Source of the DNA: Escherichia coli
GTDB taxonomy: Bacteria; Pseudomonadota; Gammaproteobacteria; Enterobacterales; Enterobacteriaceae
Strand: one strand, 5' to 3'
Assembly: GCF_041248615.1 (NCBI RefSeq)
Contig: NZ_CP158426.1
DNA: 64,000 bases
Positions 40,901-43,900 of this stretch are shown one piece after another (within the stretch, counting starts at the first letter, position 1; each line of letters opens with the position of its first letter). The position numbers are program-made.

Positions 40901-43900
40901 ATGTAAATATTATCGATTTCCCATCAATCCCTGTGGCGATGTTGCCGCACCGCTGTAGCCCTGAGTTGCTCAACTACAGCGTGGCGAAATTTATCATGTG
41001 GCGTAAAGAGACGGGGCTTTCTCCTGTTAACCAAAGCCAGACTTTTGGCGTCGCCTGGGATGACCCTGCCACCACCGCACCGGAAGCGTTTCGCTTTGAT
41101 ATCTGCGGCAGCGTTAGCGAACCGATCCCCGATAATCGTTATGGTGTGAGTAATGGTGAACTTACCGGTGGACGTTATGCTGTGGCCCGCCATGTTGGCG
41201 AGCTGGACGATATTTCACACACGATATGGGGCATCATTCGCCACTGGCTACCTGCAAGCGGCGAGAAAATGCGTAAAGCACCGATTCTGTTTCACTACAC
41301 CAATCTTGCCGAAGGGATGACAGAGCAGCGACTGGAAACAGATGTTTATGTGCCGTTGGCGTGATGAAGAATCTTTACCGGAGTGTGAGCCAAATCACTC
41401 GCGATAAGTTTGAGCGAACAATGCCACAGGCGTATTGTTGTTGGGCTTATAATTTCTCCGGTAAGGAATACCATGTATACGCGAAATTTATTATGGCTGG
41501 TCAGCCTGGTAAGTGCGGCTCCTCTCTACGCTGCTGACGTTCCCGCCAACACACCGCTCGCCCCGCAACAAGTTTTTCGTTACAACAATCATAGCGACCC
41601 AGGCACGCTCGACCCGCAAAAGGTAGAGGAGAATACTGCCGCGCAGATTGTGCTGGATCTGTTTGAAGGTCTGGTATGGATGGACGGTGAAGGTCAGGTG
41701 CAGCCCGCTCAGGCTGAACGCTGGGAGATACTGGACGGCGGCAAGCGCTATATTTTCCATCTGCGTAGCGGTTTGCAGTGGTCAGACGGTCAGCCTCTGA
41801 CGGCAGAGGATTTTGTCCTCGGCTGGCAGCGCGCGGTTGACCCGAAAACGGCAAGCCCTTTTGCTGGCTATCTGGCACAGGCGCACATTAACAATGCCGC
41901 AGCTATTGTTGCGGGTAAAGCAGATGTTACATCGCTGGGTGTCAAAGCGATGGATGATCGTACTCTTGAAGTTACGCTTGAGCAGCCGGTTCCTTGGTTC
42001 ACGACGATGCTCGCCTGGCCGACGCTGTTCCCGGTTCCCCATCATGTCATCGCGAAATATGGCGATAGCTGGAGTAAGCCTGCGCATATGGTTTACAACG
42101 GTGCCTTTGTGCTTGAACAGTGGGTAGTTAACGAAAAGATTACTGCACGCAAAAATCCAAAGTACCGCGATGCGCAACATACAGTATTGCAACAGGTTGA
42201 GTATCTGGCGCTGGATAATTCGGTCACCGGCTATAACCGCTATCGCGCGGGAGAGGTCGATCTCACCTGGGTTCCGGCGCAGCAAATTCCCACCATTGAA
42301 AAATCACTGCCTGGCGAGCTACGAATTATCCCGCGTCTGAACAGCGAATATTACAACTTTAACCTTGAGAAACCGCCATTTAACGATGTGCGGGTGCGTC
42401 GGGCGCTATATCTTACGGTTGATCGACAGCTTATTGCGCAAAAGGTACTGGGGTTGAGAACGCCCGCAACCACGCTGACGCCGCCAGAGGTAAAAGGCTT
42501 TAGCGCGACGACGTTCGATGAACTGCAAAAGCCAATGAGTGAGCGTGTCGCGATGGCAAAAGCCTTGCTGAAACAGGCGGGATACGACGCCTCTCATCCG
42601 CTACGCTTTGAGCTGTTCTACAACAAGTACGATCTGCATGAAAAAACCGCGATAGCGTTGTCTTCCGAATGGAAAAAATGGCTGGGTGCACAGGTGACGC
42701 TGCGCACAATGGAGTGGAAAACTTATCTTGATGCCCGACGAGCCGGTGATTTCATGCTGTCGCGGCAGTCGTGGGATGCGACGTATAATGATGCTTCCAG
42801 CTTCCTGAACACGCTCAAAAGCGATAGTGAAGAAAACGTCGGTCACTGGAAAAATGCGCAGTATGACGCCTTACTAAACCAGGCCACGCAGATCACTGAT
42901 GCGACAAAGCGTAATGCGTTGTATCAGCAGGCAGAAGTGATCATCAACCAACAGGCACCGCTGATTCCTATCTACTATCAGCCGTTAATCAAACTGCTTA
43001 AACCCTACGTTGGCGGTTTTCCGCTGCATAATCCCCAGGATTATGTCTACAGCAAAGAGTTGTATATCAAGGCACATTGATGCCTTTATCGCCGTCGGAG
43101 CACGTCCGGCGGCGCTATTCACGCTGATCTCCTGTGACTCGACGCGGCAGATAATGTAGTATCTCCGGCAATATTGCCCCTTTGAAGGCTGGCGAATAAG
43201 TTGAGGAATCAGAATTAATGAGCGATATGGCAGAGCGCCTTGCGCTACATGAATTTACGGAAAACGCCTACTTAAACTACTCCATGTACGTGATCATGGA
43301 CCGTGCGTTGCCGTTTATTGGTGATGGTCTGAAACCTGTTCAGCGCCGCATTGTGTATGCGATGTCTGAGCTGGGCCTGAATGCCAGCGCCAAATTTAAA
43401 AAATCGGCCCGTACCGTCGGTGACGTACTGGGTAAATACCATCCGCACGGCGATATCGCCTGTTATGAAGCGATGGTCCTGATGGCGCAGCCGTTCTCTT
43501 ACCGTTATCCGCTGGTTGATGGTCAGGGGAACTGGGGCGCGCCGGACGATCCGAAATCGTTCGCGGCAATGCGTTACACCGAATCCCGGTTGTCGAAATA
43601 TTCCGAGCTGCTATTGAGCGAGCTGGGGCAGGGGACGGCTGACTGGGTACCAAACTTCGACGGCACTTTGCAGGAGCCGAAAATGCTACCTGCCCGTCTG
43701 CCAAACATTTTGCTTAACGGCACCACCGGTATTGCCGTCGGCATGGCGACCGATATTCCACCGCATAACCTGCGTGAAGTGGCTCAGGCGGCAATCGCAT
43801 TAATCGACCAGCCGAAAACCACGCTCGACCAGCTGCTGGATATCGTGCAGGGGCCGGATTATCCGACTGAAGCGGAAATTATCACTTCGCGCGCCGAGAT

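What the first reader, a model, noticed from the sequence alone, without database searches (positions are those of the whole stretch)
41365..41472. No mqsR-mqsA toxin-antitoxin genes between ygiV and ygiS
From memory, K-12 carries the mqsR/mqsA type II toxin-antitoxin pair between ygiS and ygiV. Here the two genes are separated by only 108 bp with no ORF, so this strain has the mqsRA-free allele of the locus. This is a presence/absence polymorphism relevant to strain typing and to persistence phenotypes.
Basis: partly seen in the sequence, partly recalled or inferred. Interest (0 to 1): 0.25.

Follow-up and report, generated by a model that had tools for sequence, protein, structure and literature searches.

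The report
Ancestral empty mqsRA site in E. coli

Summary
ygiV ends at 41364 and ygiS starts at 41473. The 108 bp between them hold no MqsR- or MqsA-like coding sequence. The window is E. coli NRZ14408, NZ_LT599825.1 832001-896000.

K-12 W3110 and ATCC 8739 do have the order ygiV-mqsR-mqsA-ygiS. There, a self-contained 927-bp cassette of 41% GC replaces 5 nt right after the ygiV stop. Those 5 nt are AAGAA here (41367-41371).

Among 5,426 complete E. coli genomes:
- 2,298 (42%) carry mqsRA, never on a plasmid.
- 3,032 (56%) have the uninterrupted junction.
- 2,300 have the split junction, which matches the mqsRA count almost one to one.

Probes for mqsR and mqsA find nothing elsewhere on the source chromosome.

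All five non-coli Escherichia species representatives retrieved, including E. albertii and E. whittamii, have the empty junction with a homologous GGGA(A) filler. The empty allele is therefore ancestral and the K-12 allele is the derived insertion, not the reverse.

[quoted passage not shown] Interest is low.

Side observations: ParC S80I, an IS1-associated loss of ygiZ, a conserved 96-nt hairpin that masks the ygiS ribosome-binding site, and recurrent ygiS loss in mqsRA-free lineages.

The parts
40882..41364 (+). ygiV (GyrI-like/AraC-family regulator), intact, 160 aa, stop TGA at 41362-41364. This is the left flank of the polymorphic site.
   Evidence: 98% identical to the ATCC 8739 and EcPNK004 copies
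41367..41371 (.). Empty insertion site. The 5 nt AAGAA are GGGAA in most other mqsRA-free E. coli and GGGA(A) in E. albertii and E. whittamii. In K-12-type strains they are replaced by the 927-bp mqsRA cassette.
   Evidence: alignments; cassette length and GC
41365..41472 (+). The 108-bp ygiV-ygiS spacer of the finding. It has no MqsR/MqsA coding capacity, no cassette remnants and no MqsA operator palindrome.
41372..41467 (+). A 96-nt imperfect palindrome with an outer stem of 20 pairs. The left arm starts exactly at the right edge of the cassette insertion point. The right arm covers the ygiS Shine-Dalgarno AAGGA (41463-41467). A TATAAT hexamer lies at 41448-41453.
   Evidence: 12-nt inverted repeat; MFE -38 kcal/mol, z = -3.5; conserved in 9 sequences, no covariation; 94-95% identity in outgroups against 86-91% for the flanking genes
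41473..43080 (+). ygiS (periplasmic ABC-type substrate-binding protein), intact, 535 aa. This is the right flank.

Best explanation
The ygiV-ygiS junction in this strain is most likely the ancestral site that mqsRA has not occupied in this lineage. In a subset of E. coli that includes K-12, BL21, ATCC 8739 and many others, a self-contained 927-bp module was inserted immediately after the ygiV stop codon and replaced 5 nt. The module holds its own promoter with two MqsA operator palindromes, mqsR, mqsA and a terminator-like hairpin. NRZ14408 belongs to the lineages that did not receive it. Here ygiS therefore follows ygiV directly, behind a conserved hairpin-forming leader. The strain has no MqsR toxin or MqsA antitoxin. 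Shown: the absence, the exact boundaries, the population frequencies and the state in outgroups. Inferred: a single horizontal acquisition by a lineage ancestor, and the mechanism of insertion, which was illegitimate or flank-mediated recombination rather than transposition.
For: (1) Junction anatomy. The occupied allele reads GTGATG|927 bp|TCTTTACC and the empty allele reads GTGATG-AAGAA-TCTTTACC.
(2) All five non-coli Escherichia species representatives found have the empty junction: E. albertii, E. whittamii, Escherichia sp. MOD1-EC7003, Escherichia sp. E1V33 and SCPM-O-B-8794. None contains cassette sequence, and each has a GGGA(A) filler that aligns with the filler in E. coli. A clean deletion of the cassette would not recreate that filler.
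(3) Empty junctions are diverse, at 93-100% identity over 101 nt. The mqsRA genes are at least 99% identical in 2,297 of 2,298 carriers.
(4) The cassette is 41% GC against 52% for ygiV and ygiS.
(5) MqsR-family toxins sit on plasmids of Rahnella, Rouxiella, Burkholderia, Pectobacterium and others at 60-68% identity, 31 of the 74 plasmids being conjugative. The family is therefore mobile.
(6) There are 2,300 genomes with a split junction and 2,298 with mqsRA, so the gene pair is tied to this one site.
(7) The source chromosome shows no second match to the mqsR and mqsA probes.
Against: No whole-genome phylogeny was built, so 'single acquisition' and 'never occupied in this lineage' rest on parsimony and sequence diversity. 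The low diversity of mqsRA could simply reflect its restriction to closely related phylogroups. The outgroup sample is five genomes, and E. fergusonii and the GTDB E. coli representative were not recovered by the peptide patterns. Allelic replacement by homologous recombination from an empty-site donor would restore a perfect empty site, filler included. It cannot be distinguished from never-occupied ancestry at this locus. The window's AAGAA filler is shared with the ygiS-deleted allele of EcPNK004, which shows that alleles here do move or persist across backgrounds.
Confidence: 0.85

Rival explanations
1. Secondary loss. An ancestor of this strain carried mqsRA and lost it, either by deletion or by recombinational replacement of the locus with an empty allele from another E. 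coli.
For: Toxin-antitoxin loci are known to decay and be lost (Mine et al. 2009, in the reference list of PMC7167474). The region is recombinationally active: three alleles coexist in the species, and the AAGAA filler variant is shared with a ygiS-deleted allele.
Against: There is no cassette remnant. The 5-nt filler is homologous to that of outgroup species, which a simple deletion would not regenerate. The empty state is found in all five outgroup species. Only replacement by an empty allele remains possible, and that still makes the sequence seen here the ancestral allele.
Confidence: 0.1
2. mqsRA is present in this strain but at another chromosomal or plasmid location, so the strain is not truly mqsRA-free.
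For: Only 64 kb of the genome are in the window. MqsR-family systems do occur on plasmids of other genera.
Against: The chimeric probe gives one place only on NZ_LT599825.1, with mqsRA+ genomes as positive controls. There are 0 plasmid matches to mqsRA in all 5,426 assemblies. The counts of split junctions and of mqsRA carriers coincide, 2,300 against 2,298. Limitation: megablast with 100-bp probes would miss a homologue below about 90% identity.
Confidence: 0.03
3. Assembly or coordinate artefact: the junction is a mis-assembly that collapsed the cassette.
For: None found.
Against: The identical junction occurs in an independent complete genome (NZ_OW967178.1, 100% identity) and in about 3,000 other complete genomes.
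Confidence: 0.01

Closest known systems
mqsR-mqsA (ygiU-ygiT) type II toxin-antitoxin locus of E. coli K-12
   Same: Same chromosomal neighbourhood: qseCB, ygiW, ygiV on the left and ygiS, parC on the right. The 101 bp upstream of ygiS are 100% identical to ATCC 8739.
   Different: The whole 927-bp module is absent: promoter with two ACCTTTTAGGT operators, mqsR, mqsA and terminator. Five nucleotides (AAGAA) stand in its place.
[quoted passage not shown] 2015 and Ramisetty & Santhosh 2016, both in the reference list of PMC7167474; Fig. 1B of PMC7167474; NRG857c lacks mqsRA, PMC7232551)
   Same: It is the same phenomenon: mqsRA is accessory, present in some lineages and absent in others.
   Different: Added here, and not looked for in the two primary papers, which I did not read: the nucleotide-exact boundaries, the counts in 5,426 complete genomes, and the polarity from sister species (empty is ancestral).
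ygiS-deleted allele of the same locus (e.g. EcPNK004, 95NR1)
   Same: It also lacks mqsRA and has the same empty junction and hairpin leader.
   Different: There, ygiS from nt 23 to about 40 nt before its stop is replaced by 236 bp of unidentified sequence. In the window ygiS is intact.

Membership tests
MqsR/MqsA type II toxin-antitoxin locus | A gene for the ~98-aa MqsR toxin | tested here: not met
   tblastn of MqsR against the window: best E = 0.82 over 24 aa. No probe match on the source chromosome.
MqsR/MqsA type II toxin-antitoxin locus | A gene for the ~131-aa MqsA antitoxin immediately downstream of the toxin gene | tested here: not met
   tblastn of MqsA against the window: best E = 1.6. 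No probe match on the source chromosome.
MqsR/MqsA type II toxin-antitoxin locus | Autoregulated promoter with MqsA operator palindromes (ACCT-N2-4-AGGT), two copies 32 bp apart in K-12-type strains | tested here: not met
   The two palindromes are present in the ATCC 8739 cassette (D1/D3). The five matches in the window are all far from the locus and none lies in 41365-41472.
Ancestral empty ygiV-ygiS junction allele | ygiV stop and ygiS start separated by about 108 bp with uninterrupted homology to other empty genomes | tested here: met
   The 101-nt junction query is fully covered in 3,032 genomes. The 1,219-nt query is 100% identical in NZ_OW967178.1.
Ancestral empty ygiV-ygiS junction allele | The same arrangement, with a homologous filler at the site, in sister species | tested here: met
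   E. albertii, E. whittamii and three further Escherichia species representatives.
Deletion scar or decayed toxin-antitoxin locus | Residual cassette sequence or truncated toxin/antitoxin pseudogenes at the site | tested here: not met
   blastn of the cassette against the window matches only the shared flank.
Transposon-, IS- or integrase-borne cassette (for the K-12 insertion) | Terminal inverted repeats, target-site duplication or att-like direct repeats at the cassette ends | tested here: not met
   No direct repeat brackets the 927 bp. The ends are CCTGACTCC... and ...CGCTTTTT, and 5 nt of target are replaced rather than duplicated.

The most novel reading that the evidence does not exclude
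The spacer may not be inert. Its 96-nt hairpin is conserved across the genus and pairs the ygiS ribosome-binding site with a left arm that begins exactly where the cassette inserted. It could be a cis-acting translational gate that silences ygiS on read-through transcripts. ygiS loss is seen only in mqsRA-free backgrounds: about 1,300 E. coli genomes and two other Escherichia species, against 2,295 of 2,298 mqsRA+ genomes that keep ygiS. That pattern could reflect a real functional coupling between mqsRA and ygiS, as Kwan et al. 2015 proposed for deoxycholate.
Probability: 0.12. Interest if true: 0.35.

Novelty: already known. Interest (0 to 1): 0.08.

Why it matters
It matters little. The result records that NRZ14408, a clinical carbapenem- and colistin-resistant isolate, is mqsRA-negative, like more than half of sequenced E. 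coli. It is a reminder that K-12 carries the derived allele at this locus. It is useful as a lineage marker and as a caution for work that generalises mqsRA phenotypes from K-12. The physiological role of mqsRA is itself contested (PMC6918082), so no phenotype can be predicted from its absence.

Tried and rejected
- An Rfam scan of 40800-41700 at E <= 1 gave only a chance snoRNA-model hit at 16.5 bits, so there is no known RNA family in the spacer.
- The sigma-70 consensus scan of 41200-41600 found no promoter. It found one weak terminator-like site at 41421-41433, inside the hairpin loop.
- RNAalifold on 9 sequences supports the hairpin energetically but shows 0 compensatory pairs, so selection on structure is unproven.
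- A repeated-element (MITE) reading of the hairpin was rejected because it occurs once per genome.
- A transposon reading of the mqsRA cassette was rejected because it has no terminal repeats or target duplication.
- The 236-bp filler that replaces ygiS in the third allele was not identified. It has no Rfam family and no match in the window.
- The genome paper on NRZ14408 (Falgenhauer et al. 2017, PMC5365728) is not held (one search failed on a search term that was too short). I therefore do not state the strain's sequence type or phylogroup.
- The genome-contig scan recovered only 5 loci. E. fergusonii and the E. coli species representative were missed by the exact peptide patterns.

Full report
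**Observation**

The window is 100% identical to E. coli NRZ14408 chromosome NZ_LT599825.1, positions 832001-896000. ygiV occupies 40882-41364 (+), with its TGA stop at 41362-41364. ygiS occupies 41473-43080 (+). The spacer 41365-41472 is exactly 108 bp.

The spacer holds only mechanical ORFs: 42 aa on the minus strand, 58 aa on the plus strand, and a TTG-extended version of ygiS. tblastn with MqsR and MqsA taken from ATCC 8739 finds nothing in the 64 kb (best E = 0.82). blastn with the K-12-type cassette matches only the 101 bp of shared flank at 41372-41472.

**The K-12 arrangement**

K-12 W3110 and ATCC 8739 are annotated ygiW-ygiV-mqsR-mqsA-ygiS-parC.

Alignment of the junctions gives nucleotide-exact boundaries. 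The occupied allele reads ...GCG TGA TG | 927 bp | TCTTTACCGGAG.... The window reads ...GCG TGA TG AAGAA TCTTTACCGGAG....

The 927 bp are 41% GC, against 52% for ygiV and ygiS. They form a complete module:
- about 200 bp of promoter region, with two copies of the palindrome-containing motif TAAC/TTAACCTTTTAGGT spaced 32 bp apart (D1/D3);
- mqsR and mqsA;
- a terminator-like GC hairpin followed by a T-run.

No direct or inverted repeats bracket the module. Five target nucleotides are replaced rather than duplicated. The insertion therefore does not look like transposition or site-specific integration.

**Population frequencies**

| Query against 5,426 complete RefSeq E. coli genomes | Result |
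|---|---|
| mqsRA genes | 2,298 genomes (42%); at least 99% identity in 2,297; always chromosomal, never on a plasmid |
| 101-nt query across the empty junction, fully covered | 3,032 genomes (56%) |
| Same query, matched only over half its length (the split, occupied state) | 2,300 genomes |
| mqsA-ygiS junction | 2,295 genomes |
| ygiV-to-ygiS query, at least 80% covered | 4,013 genomes |

Split junctions and mqsRA carriers coincide almost one to one, so mqsRA in E. coli is tied to this single site.

From these numbers I derive three alleles:
- ygiV-mqsRA-ygiS: about 2,300 genomes.
- ygiV-ygiS, as in the window: about 1,700 genomes.
- An mqsRA-free allele in which ygiS is also gone: about 1,300 genomes (examples).

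The last two figures are arithmetic estimates, not direct counts.

**Is mqsRA elsewhere in this genome?**

I queried a chimeric probe made of 14,000 bp of the window plus 100 bp of mqsR and 100 bp of mqsA. The source chromosome is the top hit. It matches only query positions 1-14001 and has a single matching place. mqsRA+ genomes match positions 1-14200. Together with zero plasmid matches, this shows that NRZ14408 has no K-12-like mqsRA. A homologue below roughly 90% identity would escape this test.

**Polarity**

A scan of one genome per GTDB species with YgiV returned five non-coli Escherichia loci: E. albertii, E. whittamii, Escherichia sp. MOD1-EC7003, Escherichia sp. E1V33, and a divergent record labelled E. 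coli SCPM-O-B-8794.

None contains cassette sequence. In all five, ygiV is followed within about 10 nt by the conserved leader or by the remains of ygiS. The filler at the site reads:
- GGGAA in most empty E. coli examined;
- AAGAA in the window and in EcPNK004;
- GGGAA/GGGA in E. albertii, E. whittamii and SCPM-O-B-8794.

A deletion of the cassette would not regenerate a filler that is homologous across species. The empty junction is also diverse (93-100% identity), whereas mqsRA is nearly invariant. MqsR-family toxins occur on plasmids of several proteobacterial genera at 60-68% identity.

I conclude, at about 0.85 confidence, that the window shows the ancestral allele and that K-12 carries a horizontally acquired insertion. 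The remaining alternative is that this lineage once had mqsRA and regained an empty allele by homologous recombination. I cannot exclude that without a genome phylogeny.

**Comparison with what is known**

[quoted passage not shown] The sources are:
- Fiedoruk et al. 2015 and Ramisetty & Santhosh 2016, both in the reference list of PMC7167474;
- Fig. 1B of PMC7167474, whose legend states that no system is shared by MG1655, W, EDL933 and UTI89;
- the report that the B2 strain NRG857c lacks mqsRA (PMC7232551).

The finding is therefore a correct instance of a known polymorphism.

The suggested relevance to persistence is weak. Fraikin et al. 2019 found no effect of a mqsRA deletion on oxidative or bile-salt tolerance or on biofilm formation. 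They also found no global regulation by MqsA (PMC6918082). The review PMC7167474 calls the stress-response roles proposed for toxin-antitoxin modules into question.

**What the spacer does contain**

Positions 41372-41467 form a 96-nt imperfect palindrome. The outer arms are TCTTTACCGGAG and CTCCGGTAAGGA, extending to a 20-pair stem. The minimum free energy is -38 kcal/mol against -26.2 ± 3.4 for shuffles (z = -3.5).

Other features of the hairpin:
- The right arm contains the ygiS Shine-Dalgarno sequence. The left arm begins exactly at the cassette insertion point.
- It is present in both occupied and empty alleles and occurs once per genome.
- The 101-nt leader that contains it is more conserved in sister species (94-95% identity) than the flanking coding sequences (86-91%).
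- Nine aligned sequences show no compensatory change, so selection on structure is not demonstrated.
- No Rfam family matches, and the consensus scan finds no promoter.

It may gate ygiS translation on read-through transcripts. That is inference only.

**ygiS decay**

In the third E. coli allele, ygiS from nt 23 to about 40 nt before its stop is replaced by 236 bp of unidentified sequence. EcPNK004 and 95NR1 share the same event at 96.7% identity. Two other Escherichia species have independent internal deletions of ygiS.

All these losses are in mqsRA-free backgrounds, while 2,295 of 2,298 mqsRA+ genomes keep the 5' part of ygiS. Only three independent events were seen, so this is an anecdote and not an association. 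It is, however, the most novel reading left open. In the window ygiS is intact.

**Verdict**

The phenomenon is already known and the interest is low.

Noticed in passing
window 43218-45476 (parC), codon 80 at 43455-43457: ParC carries Ser80->Ile ([12 protein letters not shown]). This is the only amino-acid difference from the otherwise identical sibling genome NZ_OW967178.1 and from ATCC 8739 in the N-terminal region. From my own knowledge, S80I is a classic fluoroquinolone-resistance substitution.
   Followed up: yes
window ~37407-38167 (IS1; transposase 37455-38152), between mdaB (36579-37160) and qseC (38280-39629): An IS1B-family element replaces about 377 bp that, in the 100%-identical sibling genome, contain most of ygiZ (DUF2645). 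ygiZ is therefore lost in this strain by an IS1-associated deletion. The chromosome shows 8 matching places with a query that contains the IS1.
   Followed up: partly
window 41372-41467: A conserved 96-nt hairpin in the ygiS leader, with a 20-pair stem and z = -3.5. It masks the ygiS ribosome-binding site, and its 5' edge coincides with the mqsRA insertion point. The 101-nt leader that contains it is more conserved in E. albertii and E. whittamii than the flanking genes. It shows no covariation and has no Rfam match.
   Followed up: partly
L002 6614-6849 (EcPNK004) and L014 (95NR1); L006 and L008 (other Escherichia species): ygiS is recurrently lost. About 1,300 E. coli genomes have it replaced by 236 bp of unidentified sequence, and two sister species have independent internal deletions. 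All are in mqsRA-free backgrounds, while 2,295 of 2,298 mqsRA+ genomes keep ygiS.
   Followed up: partly
window 13792-17405: An IS3-family transposase (16177-17405) truncates the fimbrial usher gene of the yqiG-type chaperone-usher operon, which is annotated as a pseudogene missing its N-terminus.
   Followed up: no
window 28997-36189: An accessory iron-uptake island lies between parE and ygiN. It holds a TonB-dependent siderophore receptor, an ABC ATPase, two FecCD permeases, a substrate-binding protein and a MurR/RpiR regulator. It is also present in EcPNK004 and NZ_OW967178.1.
   Followed up: no
window, whole: The MqsA operator-type pattern ACCT-N2-4-AGGT occurs 5 times against 1.4 expected (0 of 100 shuffles reach 5). 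None of the sites is near the locus, and the strain has no MqsA. This is probably chance or a compositional effect of palindromes.
   Followed up: no
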